From: Octopus sinensis
Lineage: Eukaryota
Assembly: GCF_006345805.1 (NCBI RefSeq)
Contig: NC_043004.1
Coordinates: 66,092,001-66,156,000 of the forward strand
DNA: 64,000 nucleotides
Direction: 5' to 3'
Made by a program: the position numbers and the translations under genes. The first letter of the stretch is position 1. Each line of letters opens with the position of its first letter. The notes under the pieces were generated by a model that saw nothing but the letters and a program-made list of their open reading frames with translations, made no database searches and was not told where the DNA came from. Below are positions 6,138 through 49,322 of this stretch, piece by piece.

Positions 6138-6510
6138 TATATATATGTAAGAGATGGAGGTGGAAATAGCACAGAAGTACGTCTAAGGCTTTTCAATTGA
6201 AGAATAACTTGAATAAAAGTTATATAAAGAAGATATTACCGGTTTCACTGTATCTCATCTTAACAAATATCAGTAAACATTTATAAAAGTCTAATGTAAA
6301 AACAGTTTATCTTCTGCCCCGGGGTCAAGAGCATGCCTGAAGACTCCCATACAAAAGGCAAACTGTTTTTACTTCAAATTTTTATAATTTTTTTTTATTA
6401 ATATTTGATAAGATGAGATACATTGAAACCGGTAATATCTTCTTTATATAATATATCTCGTAGACTTAGCTATGTGCTATTTCCACCTCCATGTTATGTA
6501 TATATATATA
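6138..6510. mobile_element. Foldback element (inverted pLTR-like arms) flanked by (TA)n, carrying hammerhead motifs
   Basis: Perfect 20-bp inverted repeat 6154-6173/6473-6492 and imperfect ~100-bp inverted repeat 6220-6316/6351-6451. Confidence 0.85.
6401..6438 (+). ncRNA. Minimal type I hammerhead ribozyme, U3-A8 core variant
   Basis: ATAT-TTGATAA-GATG-agata-CATT-GAAAC-cg-GTA-ATAT. Stem I ATAT/ATAT, stem II 4 bp, palindromic stem III ACCGGT, GUA triplet. Confidence 0.6.
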
Positions 6511-7065: not shown

Positions 7066-8017
7066 GGCGGGGAACTGGCCGAAACGTTAGCACGCCGGGC
7101 GAAATGCTCAGCGGTATTTCGTCTGCCGCTACGTTCTGAGTTCAAATTTCGCCGAGGTCGACTTTGCCTTTCATCCTTTCGGGATCGATTAAATAAGTAC
7201 CAGTTGCGCACTGTGGTCGATATAATCGACTTAATCCGTTTGCCAGTCCTTGTTTGTCCCCTCTATGTTTAGCCCCTTGTGGGTAGTAAAGAAATAGGTA
7301 TTTAGTCTGCCGCTACGTTCTGAGATCAAATTCCGCAGAGGTCGACTTTGCCTTTCATCCTTTCGGGGTCGATAAATTAAGTACAGTTACTCACTGGGGT
7401 CGATATAATCGACTTAATACGTTTGTCTGTCCTTGTTTGCCCTCTCTGTGTTTAGCCTCTTGTCGGTAGTAAAGAAATGGGTATTTAGTCTGCCGCTACG
7501 TTCTGAGATCAAATTCCGCAGAGGTCGACTTTGCCTTTCATCCTTTTGGGGTCGATAAATTAAGTACAGTTACTCACTGGGGTTGATATTATCGACTTAA
7601 TACGTTTGTCTGTTCTTGTTTGTCCTCTCTGTGTTTAGCCCCTTGTGGGGAGTAAAGAAATAGGTATTTAGTCTGCCGCTACGTTCTGAGATCAAATTCC
7701 GCAGAGGTCGACTTTGCCTTTCATCCTTTCGGGGTCGATAAATTAAGTACAGTTACTCACTGGGGTCGATATAATCGACTTAATATGTTTGTCTGTCCTT
7801 GTTTGTCCTCTCTGTGTTTAGCCCCTTGTCGGTAGTAAAGAAATGGGTATTTAGTCTGCCGTTACGTTCTCGGTTTAAATTCCACCGTGTTCGACTTTGC
7901 TTTTCTCCCTTTCGGGATCGATAAATTAACTACCAGTTACGCACTGGGGTCGATCTAATCGACTGGCCGCCTCCCACAAAATTTCGGGTGTTGTGCCTGG
8001 AGCAGAAAATAATATTA
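7066..8017 (+). mobile_element. SINE family A with four internal 183/184-bp tandem units plus a terminal unit
   Basis: Head ggcggggaactggccgaaacgttagcacgcc and B-box-like gagttcaaattc. Motif ggtattt(c/a)gtctgccg recurs at 7113, 7297, 7480, 7663, 7846. Central gactttgcctttcatcctttcggggtcgataaattaagtac resembles the Meta/MESC-type SINE domain (from memory). Confidence 0.9.
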
Positions 8018-9663: not shown

Positions 9664-10230
9664 AGGTTTCGCATTTCCGGTTTATGTTTGTTACTTCGGG
9701 CTTATGTTTGCAGAAATTGGTCAGGATGTTTTCGTGGCATTGATCTAGATGTTTGAGTACGGGAATTTTCCTGGTCGTGGGGGTCCCGAATTTTACGCTT
9801 GTGTACCGTTGGTGTATCCCGCAAGGTCAAAGTAGTTTGATTATGCAGTCACCATCACCCCCATCATATTTGAAGACATACATTGAGAGAGAGAGAGAGA
9901 GAGAGAAAGTAAGAGGGAGAATATACATCGAAAGAGAGAGAAAGAGAAAGAAATAGACAGACAGATAGATACACTGTGTGATTCTAAATGTCCCTTCTTT
10001 TCTCCATAGAATAAAATGCATCTAATAAGCTACAAAGTTTATCAATGTATATTATTACCAATCAGATTATATACGTTGACATTGGTGGTTATTCTAATGT
10101 TTTTAAGTCCCTATCACATAATTTCCAAATGTATATACATTTTCTTGTACCTAGCTGACAGCGGATATAGGTTATATATGTATGTGTATGCATATATACA
10201 CGCATATATATATATTAATATATATATATA

Positions 10231-10271
<41 letters not shown>

Positions 10272-11149
10272 AATTATATATATATATATATGTATATATA
10301 TATGCATGTGTATGTGCATATATGCATGCACACACACACGTGCATATATCCAAGTATGATAGTATACATATGTCATATGTGTGTATAATTTTAAATATAT
10401 ATGAATACGCTATGTGTACGAGTGTATAGACTCGTATTATTGCATCTATACATCTAACTTAAACGCGTCACTTCATTGGGTACTTTTCGTCATCCCTTTC
10501 CCTTTCTTATTTACCCTGATTTCCCCACCTCTTTTATGACACATATCATTTCTCCTAAGAAATAAATATCCCAATTTTTCAGAGCCGGCTTCCCCTCATC
10601 GGTGCAAGATGGACATTTATCGTATTGGAATCTGCTGTAGCCCCATTATAATTTAGCATATGCAGATAACTAAATGAAATTAAACCACAGTCTATCATGC
10701 TAGGTTAATCTGTGAGTAGGACGCAATAATGGTTATTAACCAATTTCATTTACACATCTCTTTTTCGGTACTTAAAGTGTACCTCTTTCAGCAAAATGGC
10801 AGCACAAAAAGGAAGAAAACGGACAAAACAGTTAGGAAACATTCATAATGCTACACAATATTTTAATATTCGACTAATTCCTTCATTCCTTTAACTTGCA
10901 GACTTGATTATAGTACAATAAGAAATATTTTCCCTTTAGAACTGGGGGTGTATATCATGTCATCTTATAGACGTTTTTGCTGAATCTCGATATGAGACGG
11001 CGTTCATTTAGTGAATTGGTTTATAAACTTTATTCACCAATTATTGAGGCATTTGTGTTTTCTATACAAGACTTGTATATGCTTTAACCACGATCGCTTG
11101 ACTGACCATGTCACATTATAGACATACTTACATATATATATATATATAT

Positions 11150-11455
11150 ATCACTCTGATTACCGTGACTGACTAGGCTATCAGAAGTTGCTACACATCA
11201 CTGGTCGCAATGCGCTTCGCATTGTTTTAGCCTTCAAATGACGCCACCCCGCTGGCTAAGCGAGCCGGCCAACAGAAGAGAGAGTGAGAAAAAGTTGTGG
11301 TGAGAGAGTACAGCAGGGATCACCACTAACCTGCCAGAGCCTTGTAGAGCTTTTGGTGTTTCGCTCGATAAACACTCACAACACCCGGTTCGGGAATCGA
11401 AACCGCGATCCTACAACGCGAGTCCACTGCCCTAACCCCTGGGCCATTGCGCCTC

Positions 11456-12761: not shown

Positions 12762-12800
<39 letters not shown>

Positions 12801-12805
<5 letters not shown>

Positions 12806-13357
12806 CGAGACAAAACCACTATTTTAAAACCAAACAAGGTTTTTGTACATTTTTAAATATGAGAACTTTTATAATAGGTTTTTATATTCAATTGTTTATA
12901 GGGTTTATTTTAGATTATTTTAGATTATATATTGATTATATATAGATTATATATACTTTGATACTTTGATAGGTTTCGGCCATTATTGGCCCAGGCCATG
13001 TCTAACTTAATAGCACCACCTGATATAGATTATATTTTTATTTTTTTACATTCTTTCATTGATAATTTTATTGTTTTATTATTTTAAATTATTTTAAATT
13101 ATATTTTAAAATATTGCTATTTTTAGATCGAAAATCCACCTGAAGATTGTCGGAGCAGACATGAAACATTTGTAGTGGCGGTTTATTTAATTTATATTAA
13201 AATTTTATGTATTAATTAAGTCTTTCCTTGTTTGGTTTTAAAATAGTGGTTTTGTCTCGAATTATATTATATAATATTTTACTATAAAATTGGATTTAAC
13301 CTTAAATCTGATTTTTCCCTGTAATTTTGGATTCATTCCCTAGTATTTATATTATTA

Positions 13358-13360
<3 letters not shown>
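12801..13360 (+). mobile_element. Inverted-arm element in (TA)n carrying a hammerhead (Penelope pLTR/retrozyme-like)
   Basis: Perfect 39-bp inverted repeat 12801-12839/13226-13264; (TA)n on both sides. Confidence 0.8.
13136..13178 (+). ncRNA. Minimal type I hammerhead ribozyme
   Basis: CCAC-CTGAAGA-tTGTC-ggagca-GACAt-GAAAC-attt-GTA-GTGG. Complete canonical core, stem I CCAC/GTGG, U.U at 10.1/11.1. Confidence 0.75.
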
Positions 13361-13407
<47 letters not shown>

Positions 13408-13621
13408 ATATAAACATATATACATACACGTATCTTTGAAAGTATTATACGTGGATATATATATATATATATGAATCTTGAGATGAAGGGCATTTAATTA
13501 TATGAAATGTAAATTGAATTTCCTCCTCAAATATCTCATATAGAGTATTCATTAGCCAGCGTGTGTGGGTGTCTCAGTAGTGTGGTGTGAAGGAGTGGAA
13601 GATCGTCAAAGAAACGGAGAG

Positions 13622-24069: not shown

Positions 24070-24465
24070 TGATAGTCGATTACATCGATGCCAGTATTAT
24101 ACTGGTACTCATTCCATCGACCCTGATAGGATGAAAAGCAAAGTCAACCTCAGCGGAATTCGAACTCAGAAGGTGAAGATGGACTAAATGTCGCTATGCA
24201 TTTCACCCGGCATACTAATTCGTGGAGGTGGATGTTAGTCGATTGAATCTGTCTCAAATACATTACAAGTACTTATTTTATCGACCGTTAGAAAATGATA
24301 GACAAAATTTACCGCGCCGGAATTTGAACTTAGAATTTTGCTGAGGTGAACTTTGCTTTTCATCCTTGAAATAATTGCCACATGAGCGCTGGGGTGGTTG
24401 CCATCGGCTAGCCCCCTTCCAACCCCAAAATTTCAGGCCTTGTGCCTATAGTAGAAAGAATGATT
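24070..24465. mobile_element. Composite of SINE family A pieces (two minus, one plus)
   Basis: Minus-strand pieces at about 24072-24220 and 24222-24335, then plus-strand gaggtgaactttgcttttcatcc...gccttgtgcctatagtagaaag. Confidence 0.7.
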
Positions 24466-32015: not shown

Positions 32016-32518
32016 GTGTGTGTGTTTGTGTGTCTGTGTGCATGTGTGTGTGTGTGTGCGTGTGTTTGTTTGTGGGTGTGTGTGCGCATGTTTGGATGTA
32101 CAGATTTGCATATTTTGTTTTATGTATGTATTATCATGCAGATAGTTTCATATCTAGACATTCTTATATATATTCAAATTATAAACTGCTGGATATTTAT
32201 ACTTACAGTCATGGATCTGGATTATATTTCTCCATTTAGGTTTGAGAAGACTCAAGATTAGTATTTCGGCAGTGTGTTACATATTCAGGGCCCCAATAAT
32301 TACAGGTAAAAATCTGAACTCGTAATCTGGATAGAGTAACTGCAGATAACTCAATAGTTCAGTGCAGGTGTTCTTTCTTTCACTGATTTTCAGCTTGTTG
32401 TTAACATCAGCTAATTTCCACAACTGTTTCTCTTCTCTATCCCAAATCATTTTACCAAGTCTCTGGTTTACATATTTTATTGGGTTTTCACAGGATATCT
32501 CCAACCAGTACTTTTTTT
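31758..32518 (-). mobile_element. 3' end of R4/Dong-like REL-endonuclease LINE, copy 2 (microsatellite in 3' UTR)
   Basis: KYW...MIWDREEKQ...ADVNNKLKISERKNTCTELLSYLQLLYPDYEFRFLPVIIGAL; same 3' terminus as copy 1. Confidence 0.8.
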
Positions 32519-32618
32519 NNNNNNNNNNNNNNNNNNNNNNNNNNNNNNNNNNNNNNNNNNNNNNNNNNNNNNNNNNNNNNNNNNNNNNNNNNNNNNNNNN
32601 NNNNNNNNNNNNNNNNNN
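32519..32618. other. Assembly gap (100 N)
   Basis: Run of N; different LINE classes lie on either side. Confidence 1.
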
Positions 32619-34072
32619 AAGTTCTGATGTTACTGTGTTTGATGGTGTCATTAATATCATTTATGTAAATGATGAAGAGAAGTGGGCCCAACACAGTGCC
32701 TTGTGGGACACCACTGCTGACTTTGGCTGGGCTGGATTTGACTCCTTCGACTACAACATGTTGGGTTTGTTAGACAGGAAGCACTTGATCCACTGCAGCA
32801 GCTTTCAAGTGACACCATATTGGACAGCTTTTTCAAAAGGATCTTATGATCAACCCTGTCAAGCCTTGCTGAAATCAAGGTAGATGACATCAGTGTGGAA
32901 CCCTCTCCCAAGGCTCATCAAATGTCATCAAAATGATGCAGTAGCGGCGTCAGGCAATCTCTTCCATGACGGAATCAATGCTGGTTGGGAGTTCAGCATA
33001 TTATGACTCTCAAAGAAGTGAGTTATACGCGATCTCAGCACTCTCTCAAATACCTTAATGATATGAGTGAGATTGGACGGTAATTCACGGCTAGCGATTT
33101 GTTTCCTTTTTTGAAAACTGGGACAACAGGCTGGGGACAACAGACTGGGATAGAAGGTCTTCTGGTATATATCCAGCATCCACTGACTCAGCCACATATT
33201 GGCTAGAGGGGATGCAAGTTGGTTTTGACACATCTTCAAGACACAAGCAGGGAACCTATCGGGACCTACTGCTGAATTATGCTTCATTTCCTTTATTGCT
33301 GCTAAGACATCAGGAGCGCCAAAGGTTATGTCCGATAAAGTGTATTGGGGAGTAACATCACTGATAAAGCCCCGATCAGTCATATCAGGAATAATGAAAA
33401 CAGAGCAATATTGTTTCTGCAATATCTCTCCCATGGTTTTGGCATTGTCTTGAAGAGTACCATTTTCATCAATCAGAGGGCCAACAGTAGAACCAGTGAC
33501 TCTGTGTTTTTTTGCAAATGAGAAGAACACTTTGGGATTGAGTTTGATCTTCTCAATGGCCCAGGCCTCTTCAGCTCTTCGCTGACTATTGATGATAGAG
33601 ATCATGTTGTTTTGGAGTTTATGTTTTTTTAATCTCTAGCGACGAGATGGCAGTCAGATTGGTGTGTTGCTGTTGAGAGTATTTCAGCTTGTTGATTTTT
33701 TGGTTAATTCTTTTAATTTTCCTGATGAGAGATTTTCTATTAATAGGGATTTGATACTTAGATTTGTTTGCAGATCTTAATGGGGTGTGTTTTGCACATA
33801 TGTTCGTAATGGTATCTACAAATGACTGCCAGGACATTTTGATGTTAGTGGGTGTGTATGTGTGCGTGAAGGACCAATCGACTTGTGCAAGATCATTATT
33901 GATCGCTTCCCAGTTTGCATTGTGGAAATCCATAGTGTCAAATGGATGAACAGGAGGGATGGCATTTGTTTTGCATTTTGGCCAGTGAAATCTCAGATCA
34001 CAGAGAACCATGTCATGTCGGAGAGTAGTGTTTTCTCCACTGCAATATTGTGGATAGCATCAGTGCGATGCT
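32619..34072 (-). mobile_element. CR1/L2/jockey-group LINE ORF2 fragment (end of APE, linker, RT N-terminal half), frameshifted
   Basis: LSD(H)DMVLCDL at the APE end, [68 protein letters not shown]. Confidence 0.92.
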
Positions 34073-41802: not shown

Positions 41803-42478
41803 TCTTTTCTACTCCCGGCACAAGTCCCGAAATTTTGGGGGAGTGGGCCAGTCGATTAGATCGACCCCTGTGCCCTATTGGTATATAATTTATTGACTCT
41901 GAAAGAATGAAAGGCAAACTCGACCTCGGCGGAATTTGAACTCAGAAGGTAGTGGCAGACGAAATACCTATTTCTTTACTCCCCACAAGGGGCTAAACAC
42001 AGAGAGGACAAGCAAGGAAAGACAAACGGATTAAGTCGCTTGTGTCGACACCAGTGCGTAAGTGGTACTTATTTAATCGACCCCGAAAGATGAAAGGCAA
42101 AGTCGACCTCGGCGGAATTTGAAATCAGAACTTAACGGCAGACGAAATAACCTATTTCTATTTCTTTACTCCCCACAAGGGGCTAAACACAGAGAGGACA
42201 ATTAAGGACAGACAAATGGATTAGGTCGATTATATCGACCCCAGTGCGTAACTGGTCCCTAATTTTCGATCCCGAAAAGATGAAAGGCAAAGTCGAACAC
42301 GGCGGAATTTGAACTCAGAACGTAACGGCAGACGAAATACTGCGAAGCATTTCACCCGGCATGCTAACGATTCTGCCAGCTTGCCGCATTCAGGAATTTG
42401 AACTCAGAACGTAGCGGCAGACGAAATACCGCTACGCAGTTCGCCCAGCGTGCTAACGTTTCTGCCACCTAGCTGCCT
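41803..42478 (-). mobile_element. SINE family A trimer with duplicated head
   Basis: (ggc)ggaatttgaa(c/a)tcagaa at 41928, 42111, 42301 and about 42392. Confidence 0.9.
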
Positions 42479-42660
42479 TTCCAAAATTGATATATTGTTT
42501 ACTATTTTACTTAGAGGAGAAATGCATGCATTTCTGTAGCGACATCTGGTTCCTTGAAAGTGATTGTTTGTGTCTGTGAATCATTCAAATTACATAAGTA
42601 AAATGAATTTTAGGAGGCAGAATTTCGATGAAAACAAAAATATTTATAACCTGTATTATA

Positions 42661-43204
42661 CGATGTTGAGTCAAAAAGTAATGCCATTTTGTTTAGGACA
42701 GGTATAATTATCAACACAGGAACATGTATCATACTTCAAAAGGAAGTTAATCCTTTGTGGATCACATCCCTACTACTCAACATAGTCACTGTTTCCCTCA
42801 ATAGCAATGATCCACCTTCGAATGAGAGCATGTATCCCTGCCCCGTAAAATTCTTTGATCCACTTCTTGACTACCTTCACACTCACCAGATTTAGCGCCT
42901 TCAGACTATCATCTCTTCGGTGTCACGAAAGAGGGTTTGAGAGGCAAACATTATTCCAGTGATGAGGAAGTGAAAACTCTAGTGAAGAATTTGCTCAAAG
43001 AACAGTCAACAGAATTTTACGGGACATGAATACATGCTCTCGTTCGAAGGTGAAACATTGCTACTGAGAGAAACAGCGACTATGTTGAAGAGTAGGGATG
43101 TGATCCAAAGAGAACAAGCTTCCTTTTGATGTTTGTTACGTGTTCCTGTGTTGATAATTATACCTGTCCTAAGCAAAATGGCATCACTTTTTGATTCACT
43201 GTTG
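42661..43204 (+). mobile_element. Mariner-derived foldback/MITE with ~200-bp inverted arms, TA TSD and transposase C-terminal remnant
   Basis: TA at 42659-60 and 43205-06. Arms about 42661-42858 and 43008-43204. 42874-43095 translates PSHSPDLAPSDYHLFGVTKEGLRGKHYSSDEEVKTLVKNLLKEQSTEFYGT*IHALVRR*NIATERNSDYVEE*. Confidence 0.93.
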
Positions 43205-48991: not shown

Positions 48992-49322
48992 TAAAACATT
49001 ATTGGTGAATGAAGAAATGGAGCTGAACGCAGATGAACAGAAATGTTTTATTTCATTCTACACACGTGTTTCGAAAGGCACAAATTACCAAAATCCGATT
49101 GAATAATGGACCATATTGTGTCTTCTCTTCAGGAAGAAAAACAGAATGGCTCCATTTCTTCAATTCACCAATAATGTTTTAATTTCAATTATCCGCACCA
49201 ACGCACGGTTGCAACGCCATATGGTTACCTCCAACCGTGCTGTTACTGTGATTTTTGCTACTAAGGTATCGGTTAAACTTTTGATTAATCTACTACAAGA
49301 TATTCATCTTTCTATTTCACAT
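48992..49322 (-). mobile_element. Inverted-arm element in (TA)n carrying a hammerhead
   Basis: Inverted repeat 48992-49023/49149-49181 (one indel); (TA)n on both sides. Confidence 0.8.
49056..49135 (-). ncRNA. Type I hammerhead ribozyme with long stem-loop II
   Basis: Minus strand TTC-CTGAAGA-GAAGACACAAT...ATTTGTGCCTTTC-GAAACAC-gt-GTGTA-GAA. G10.1-C11.1 pair present; GUA triplet. Confidence 0.7.

What the first reader, a model, noticed from the sequence alone, without database searches (positions are those of the whole stretch)
12801..13360. Canonical minimal hammerhead inside a perfect 39-bp inverted repeat in (TA)n
Seen: CCAC CTGAAGA tTGTC ggagca GACAt GAAAC attt GTA GTGG at 13136-13178, with predicted cleavage after A13174. 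The arms 12801-12839 and 13226-13264 are identical in reverse complement, which suggests a recent insertion. The U.U apposition at the base of stem II may lower activity. Inference: a young inverted-pLTR Penelope-type insertion.
Basis: partly seen in the sequence, partly recalled or inferred. Interest (0 to 1): 0.72.

Follow-up and report, generated by a model that had tools for sequence, protein, structure and literature searches.

The report
Truncated Penelope-like insertion with minimal hammerhead
This 550-base insert in a TA microsatellite carries a minimal hammerhead ribozyme motif between two perfectly inverted 39-base arms and is likely an ordinary, non-coding stump of a Penelope-like jumping gene, a well-described kind of which two more likely examples lie in the same 64 kb.

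Summary
The insert is asymmetric: about 80 nt beyond the right arm share the body's T-skew and hold a strand-specific hairpin. That fits the Penelope pattern of an inverted stub, a 5'-truncated pLTR and a one-sided tail better than a MITE. Two sequence-unrelated elements in the window (about 6140-6500 and 48992-49320) repeat the architecture. 'Canonical' overstates: G10.1-C11.1 is absent, stem III is an imperfect palindrome, and no dimer partner is nearby. The U.U apposition appears in published Penelope-type hammerheads, so it need not be decay. 'Young' is weak: 39 of 39 identity only bounds arm divergence at 7.4%. Copies, partner ORF, clade and cleavage were not shown, and no genome is held. 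The scan noted this kind before in other genomes. Verdict: new member of a known kind; low interest.

The parts
12770..12802 (.). left (TA)n tract, likely the insertion target; the last TA is shared with the arm, so the boundary is ambiguous by 2 nt and no TSD can be read
12801..12839 (-). inverted 39-nt stub: reverse complement of the 3' end of the repeat unit (likely an inverted, 5'-truncated pLTR)
   Evidence: 39 of 39 identity; T-A skew -0.41 against +0.21 to +0.41 in the measured body, arm and tail segments outside the hammerhead
12840..13264 (+). direct, non-coding, T-rich body (likely a 5'-truncated pLTR/3' UTR)
   Evidence: skew +0.25 to +0.31 in three measured segments; short stop-broken frames in 12956-13350
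12973..12994 (-). unexplained hammerhead-like half motif on the opposite strand (CUG, then GGCC-AAUAAU-GGCC, then GAAAC; lacks ANGA and a matching stem I/III), inside a structured GC island at about 12965-13030
   Evidence: 3 of 20,000 shuffles with a post hoc descriptor; fold z -3.16 (minus strand) and -1.92 (plus strand)
13136..13178 (+). type I minimal hammerhead motif: stem I CCAC/GUGG, core CUGAAGA, U.U apposition, stem II UGUC/GACA, GAAA, stem III stretch ACAUUUGU, triplet GUA; predicted cut after 13174
13226..13264 (+). right arm: 3' end of the repeat unit, 90 nt downstream of the predicted cut site at its far end
13265..13345 (+). one-sided extension (likely the PLE 'tail') with a 13-bp hairpin at 13286-13315 that needs G.U pairs and is stable on the + strand only
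   Evidence: skew +0.21 against +0.04 and -0.06 in the flanks; hairpin z -4.29 (+) against -0.85 (-) on a window chosen around it; whole tail z -1.80 against +0.39
13344..13426 (.). right (TA)n tract

Best explanation
The insert is likely a dead, 5'-truncated copy of an endonuclease-bearing Penelope-like retrotransposon: it has a T-rich body with a minimal hammerhead motif, a one-sided 3' extension and a 39-nt inverted stub, and it lies in a (TA)n tract that the element's nuclease likely cut. Inferred mechanism: a partner-encoded RT/GIY-YIG protein nicked both strands of the TA tract and primed cDNA twice on the element's RNA. One cDNA would start at the end of the tail (about 13345) and run about 500 nt to 12840. 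The other would start at the pLTR end (equivalent to 13264) and run only 39 nt. The two were joined head to head, giving stub + body + tail. Both start points sit in TA-like patches of the element, so annealing to the target may have helped. The hammerhead is a passenger at this locus: it is predicted to cut only as a dimer or with protein help, and this solo copy has no partner. Shown: arms, motif, asymmetry, skew, TA context, two look-alike elements. Inferred: element identity, priming, age, inactivity.
For: Arms and motif. Skew flips only in the left arm, and the tail shares the body's skew. Sense-strand hairpin in the tail. A relaxed descriptor gives 3 hits in the window (shuffle mean 0.31; 1 of 500 shuffles reached 3). 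All 3 lie in inverted-repeat pairs that abut (TA)n, spans that cover 1.6% of the window (8.0% for all 7 local inverted pairs considered). The three are unrelated in sequence (6 of 6 pairwise scores within the shuffle range), so the architecture recurs across families. In the 48992 element the extension sits on the inverted arm and folds better on that arm's strand (z -2.92 against -1.43), as the 'tail at either end' rule allows (PMC8557442). Published: inverted 5'-truncated pLTR plus optional tail (PMC3846280); (TA)n bias and unreadable TSDs (PMC8557442); an anole PLE protein nicks AT-rich DNA on both strands and starts RT at two sites that bound the tail, in a stem-loop (PMC11167929); most min-HHRs occur as single motifs of truncated PLEs (PMC4209133).
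Against: No second copy in the window, none in the earlier-findings index, none in the collections scanned. No RT or GIY-YIG hit among 100 of 200 candidate frames in the window. The tail is about 80 nt, twice the 30-40 nt usually quoted. In the anole element the ORF begins at the hammerhead, whereas no long frame starts here. A TA-flanked 37-nt TIR reading is formally possible. Rfam has no hit, and G10.1-C11.1 is missing. The antisense half motif at 12973-12994 is unexplained.
Confidence: 0.8

Rival explanations
1. A MITE (non-autonomous TIR DNA transposon of Tc1/mariner type) with 37-nt TIRs at 12803-12839 and 13226-13262 and a TA target duplication, carrying a captured hammerhead-like piece; 13265-13345 would be unrelated flank.
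For: Perfect arms with TA on both outer sides; a size of 460 nt fits MITEs (PMC8969392); a mariner-like long-TIR remnant exists in the window at about 42650-43200 (class label recalled).
Against: The extension shares the body's skew and has a strand-specific hairpin. Only the left arm abuts a long TA tract. Two other hammerhead-bearing inverted elements have different arm lengths (32 and about 170 nt) and one-sided extensions or foldback form. The mariner-like remnant has no hammerhead hit and is not in a TA tract.
Confidence: 0.09
2. A fixed-structure, non-autonomous Penelope parasite (or a chimera of two PLE families made by template switching) that is copied as one unit, including the stub, the antisense hammerhead-like relic and the tail.
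For: Antisense half motif is rare by shuffle (3 of 20,000) and lies in a structured island. Non-autonomous PLE derivatives are described (PMC8557442; bioRxiv 2026.07.22.740005).
Against: The descriptor was post hoc and gives 3 hits in the window against a shuffle mean of 0.135 per window, one of them in unstructured context. The T-skew is continuous across the measured body segments. There is no tandem unit as in retrozymes.
Confidence: 0.09
3. Chance motif inside a local inverted duplication or an assembly artefact at microsatellites.
For: No Rfam hit; fold z 0.12; microsatellite-rich DNA is hard to assemble (general knowledge).
Against: 0 of 20,000 interior shuffles; three motifs, each inside an inverted pair; most of the stretch's words are found in runs of several studies.
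Confidence: 0.02

Closest known systems
[quoted passage not shown]
   Same: Head-to-head inverted stub made of the unit's 3' end; one-sided extension with a stem-loop; AT-rich, (TA)n target with unreadable TSD; hammerhead about 90 nt from the unit's end.
   Different: No ORF in this copy; very short stub (39 nt); extension about 80 nt rather than 30-40; clade not assignable (TA targeting suggests Neptune or Naiad, a full motif argues against Naiad).
Minimal hammerheads of metazoan PLEs (Cervera and de la Pena 2014, PMC4209133), closest in layout to the Hydra magnipapillata and Drosophila willistoni rows of Fig. S3
   Same: Type I, 4-bp stem I, CUGANGA plus an extra nucleotide, GAAA, short near-palindromic stem III, NUH; apparently U after A9, U before GAAA and A17 as in those two rows (machine-read text).
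   Different: Lacks the G10.1-C11.1 pair of the >80% consensus; stem II is 4 bp; palindrome only 6 of 8 (self-duplex -2.9 kcal/mol against -11.7 and -8.3 for the two other elements in the window).
Animal non-LTR retrozymes (bioRxiv 2026.07.22.740005)
   Same: Non-coding, type I hammerhead, PLE-derived.
   Different: Single unit with an inverted stub, not a tandem array.
MITEs of Tc1/mariner type
   Same: Short, non-coding, perfect inverted arms, TA on both outer sides.
   Different: The right arm is likely not terminal; RNA-strand features (hammerhead, G.U hairpin) point to an RNA intermediate.

Membership tests
Metazoan PLE minimal hammerhead | Core CUGANGA ... GAAA ... NUH with helices I and II | tested here: met
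   stem I pair probabilities 0.74-0.97 and stem II 0.87-0.91
Metazoan PLE minimal hammerhead | Extra nucleotide after position 9; U-rich 5' and AU-rich 3' flanks | tested here: met
   U at 13147; flanks 48% and 55% T; consensus line in PMC4209133 Fig. S3
Metazoan PLE minimal hammerhead | G10.1-C11.1 closing pair (a >80% consensus feature, not universal) | tested here: not met
   U.U apposition then U-A. Two PLE-linked rows of the same figure appear to share this variant, so it is filed as a variant, not as 'canonical'.
Metazoan PLE minimal hammerhead | Palindromic stem III region for dimer pairing | tested here: inconclusive
   6 of 8 positions pair, central tandem U.U, -2.9 kcal/mol; one base away from a perfect palindrome
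Metazoan PLE minimal hammerhead | Self-cleavage as dimer or with protein help | not testable with these tools
   needs an in vitro assay
EN+ Penelope-like element insertion | Family encodes PLE RT plus GIY-YIG endonuclease | not testable with these tools
   no genome held; this copy has no long frame in 12956-13350, as expected of a 5'-truncated copy; no RT/GIY-YIG Pfam hit in 100 of 200 window frames
EN+ Penelope-like element insertion | Inverted 5'-truncated piece of the unit's 3' end at the 5' side | tested here: met
EN+ Penelope-like element insertion | One-sided tail of about 30-40 nt | tested here: inconclusive
   about 80-nt extension with shared skew and strand-specific hairpin; its being part of the element was not confirmed on copies
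EN+ Penelope-like element insertion | Dispersed copies with variable 5' truncation and inversion points | not testable with these tools
   no copy aligned; indirect hint only
Naiad clade | Absence of a canonical hammerhead motif (PMC8557442) | tested here: not met
   full motif present; four short stretches of the element are absent from that paper's supplement
Neptune clade | RT-linker(CX2-5CxxC)-EN ORF; microsatellite bias | not testable with these tools
   only the TA context is seen
Tc1/mariner-type MITE | Terminal inverted repeats at both ends with TA TSD | tested here: inconclusive
   TA lies outside both arms, but the right extension looks like part of the insert
Non-LTR retrozyme | Tandem hammerhead-bearing monomers | tested here: not met
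   single unit; no tandem period at the locus

The most novel reading that the evidence does not exclude
A fixed-structure, MITE-mimicking non-autonomous Penelope parasite that targets (TA)n and is copied as a unit with its 39-nt inverted stub, a U.U-type sense hammerhead and a conserved antisense hammerhead-like module, so that both strands of its RNA carry ribozyme-derived structure (bearing on the proposed antisense-template step of PLE replication).
Probability: 0.06. Interest if true: 0.55.

Novelty: new member of a known kind. Interest (0 to 1): 0.17.

Why it matters
Little on its own: it is one more likely stump of a Penelope-like element, in a genome that appears to hold about three per 64 kb. 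It is a tidy example of the two-priming-site model (stub starts at the pLTR end, body starts at the tail end), and a reminder that such stumps mimic MITEs in annotation. If the host is an octopus (my recollection of the repeat style; not tested), note that Penelope-like elements are already counted at 6.83% of the O. vulgaris genome in 190 families (PMC13282606 supplement row). Two full-text searches (octopus + Penelope + hammerhead; octopus + hammerhead ribozyme) listed no paper describing octopus PLE hammerheads as such, apart from the Naiad paper; subscription journals and Repbase/Dfam entries are not covered.

Tried and rejected
No RNA holder listed: no evidence on expression. Rows with a share under 0.5 (12 of 20 holders) are not used as evidence. 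Pattern scans: 0 hits in metagenome contigs (21-mer; tail hairpin pattern), 0 in viral contigs. The 11 hits of an 18-mer in prokaryote genomes are chance: about 17 expected, and none extends beyond 30 nt. Rfam: only microsatellite-driven miRNA-like and weak matches. Pfam on 100 of 200 candidate frames: no RT or GIY-YIG; a LINE-like frame (label recalled) also had no hit, so sensitivity is limited. ARAGORN: 0 genes. Sigma-70 promoter scan: irrelevant for an animal, 6 sites against 3.3 +/- 1.9. The antisense half motif was tried as an intact type I or III hammerhead by eye and fails (no ANGA, no matching stems). A similar half motif at 10783 (minus strand) has no clear inverted arms. Earlier findings by sequence: one irrelevant bacterial note, none; none for this genome. 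A paper search on 10.1/11.1 mismatch kinetics gave nothing relevant among 15 listed of 36. Lunse et al. 2017 is not held; I saw it only as cited in PMC6765202.

Full report
1. Observation. The motif and coordinates are exactly as reported: stem I CCAC/GUGG, core CUGAAGA, U, stem II UGUC/GACA with loop GGAGCA, U, GAAA, C-AUUU-G, U-A; the predicted cut is after A13174. The arms 12801-12839 and 13226-13264 are 39 of 39 complementary with no inward extension; they reach 42 nt if TA letters are counted. TA tracts lie at 12770-12802 and 13344-13426. A strict descriptor, written after seeing the motif, hits once in the window; 3 of 200 block-shuffled windows and 0 of 20,000 shuffles of the interior gave a hit. 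Against: no hammerhead family among 14 Rfam matches at E<=5, and a fold z-score of 0.12. Both are unsurprising for a motif that lacks a stable stem III (pair probability 0.01-0.02, while stems I and II reach 0.74-0.97).

2. Anatomy. The insert is not symmetric. The left arm abuts the TA tract directly; the right arm is followed by about 80 nt before the next tract. T-A skew is -0.41 in the left arm, +0.25 to +0.31 in three measured body segments, -0.13 in the hammerhead itself, +0.41 in the right arm, +0.21 in the extension, and +0.04 and -0.06 in the flanks (a 36-nt part of the body was not measured). So body, right arm and extension read as one T-rich strand, and the left arm is an inverted piece of it. 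The extension holds a 13-bp hairpin (13286-13315) with two G.U pairs: z -4.29 on the hammerhead strand and -0.85 on the other (window chosen around the hairpin). For the whole extension the values are -1.80 and +0.39. The junction between right arm and extension is TA-like (the arm match extends to 52 of 54 against the left tract), as is the end of the extension. No TSD can be read inside TA. No long frame exists in 12956-13350. One oddity remains: a minus-strand half hammerhead at 12973-12994 lacking ANGA (3 of 20,000 shuffles, post hoc), in an island that folds on both strands.

3. Comparanda inside the window. A relaxed descriptor finds 3 motifs: 13140 (+), 49132 (-) and 6405 (+, with the U3-A8 core variant described in PMC4209133). 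Shuffles give a mean of 0.31, and 1 of 500 reached 3. All three lie in inverted-repeat pairs next to TA tracts; those spans cover 1.6% of the window, and all 7 local inverted pairs considered cover 8.0%. The 48992 element has 32 of 33-nt arms and a 140-nt extension on the inverted arm that folds better on that arm's strand. The 6140 element is a foldback with arms of about 170 nt that include the hammerhead. The three share no sequence similarity beyond shuffles (6 of 6 comparisons; for the focal element only 13001-13350 was compared). The mariner-like long-TIR remnant at about 42650-43200 (label recalled) has no hammerhead hit. So the combination of hammerhead, inverted arm and TA tract recurs in unrelated families.

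4. Copies elsewhere. No genome is held. Of 24 listed sequencing runs, 20 hold part of the stretch and 8 hold half or more of its 52 sampled words (best 0.69); the holders come from 10 studies and 4 organism labels. Two of the 8 have only about 100 million letters, which would be unlikely for a single-copy, non-coding locus in a large genome. That hints at a repeated family but was not verified, since no contigs were laid. Pattern scans of metagenome, viral and prokaryote collections gave nothing real. No partner ORF was found in 100 of 200 window frames.

5. Mechanism. Published EN+ PLE insertions have pLTRs, an adjacent inverted 5'-truncated copy and an optional 30-40-nt tail at either end, with (TA)n bias in Naiad and Neptune (PMC8557442, passages; PMC3846280, passages). 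The anole Poseidon protein nicks AT-rich DNA on both strands, extends both, and starts RT at two internal sites that bound the tail; its hammerhead cuts only with protein and is dispensable for insertion in vitro (PMC11167929, parts 1-2 of 4). Applied here (inference): one cDNA from the tail end ran about 500 nt, a second from the pLTR end ran 39 nt, and they were joined head to head in a TA tract. The hammerhead is likely a silent passenger at this locus: min-HHR monomers showed no cleavage and dimers only weak cleavage (PMC4209133, parts 1-2 of 4), and there is no second copy nearby.

6. On U.U: in Fig. S3 of PMC4209133 (supplement parts 1-2 of 3, machine-read) the Hydra and D. willistoni rows, both PLE-linked, read as U after A9, an extra U after stem II, and A17. 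The GAAA column is detached in the text, so placing that U before GAAA is my inference from stem III pairing. If right, U.U is a known variant. The stem III palindrome is the weaker point (6 of 8; -2.9 kcal/mol against -11.7 and -8.3 for the other two motifs). On age: 0 of 39 mismatches bounds arm divergence at 7.4% (95%), about 11 million years at the rate implied in PMC13282606 (JC 0.09 = 25 My; passages; host identity untested). The locus does look better preserved than the other two elements, whose arms differ.

7. Rivals. MITE (0.09): formally possible, with TA outside both arms, but it leaves the extension, its hairpin and the pattern in the other elements unexplained. Fixed non-autonomous unit or chimera (0.09): rests on the antisense half motif alone. 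Chance or artefact (0.02).

8. Novelty. The architecture and the motif class are in print, and the scan noted the same kind in other genomes. PLEs are abundant in octopods (PMC8967140 passages; PMC13282606 supplement row, 6.83% and 190 families). That this window is octopus DNA is my recollection of the repeat style and comes from no call. Searches listed no paper on octopus PLE hammerheads beyond the Naiad paper. Other papers seen: bioRxiv 2026.07.22.740005 (abstract and passages; its supplements were not seen and could list related families), PMC8969392 and PMC6765202 (passages); Lunse et al. 2017 not seen. Verdict: new member of a known kind, clade unassigned, interest 0.17.

Noticed in passing
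window 48992-49320: Second hammerhead-bearing inverted element between TA tracts: arms 48992-49023/49149-49181 (32 of 33), minus-strand motif with a long stem II and strong stem III palindrome (core starts at 49132), 140-nt structured extension on the inverted arm.
   Followed up: partly
window 6140-6500: Older foldback element with arms of about 170 nt next to TA tracts; each arm carries a hammerhead-like motif with the U3-A8 core variant (sense copy 6401-6438); a further CTGAAGA lies in the central spacer.
   Followed up: partly
window 12973-12994 (-): Antisense half hammerhead (stem II plus GAAAC, preceded by CUG without ANGA) inside the focal element; unexplained.
   Followed up: partly
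window about 10760-10795 (-): Hammerhead-like half motif with a core one base longer than usual and a 5-bp stem II, between TA tracts at 10173-10321 and 11133-11150; no clear inverted arms.
   Followed up: partly
window about 42650-43200: Long-TIR remnant (perfect-seed diagonal of 82 nt at 42693-42774/43091-43172) with an interior resembling a mariner transposase C-terminus (label recalled).
   Followed up: no
window about 32280-34060 (-): Broken LINE-like frames (235 and 146 aa; label recalled, no Pfam hit) beside the window's 100-N gap.
   Followed up: no
window 7113-7964 and 41850-42467: Tandem arrays of a 183-190-nt SINE-like unit (4.6 and 2.6 copies); an inverted pair of pieces of what looks like the same repeat lies at 24128-24366.
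   Followed up: no
whole window: Extremely microsatellite-rich animal DNA: 127 TRF rows, 67 (TA) runs of 8 or more units, 34% GC, no tRNA genes.
   Followed up: no
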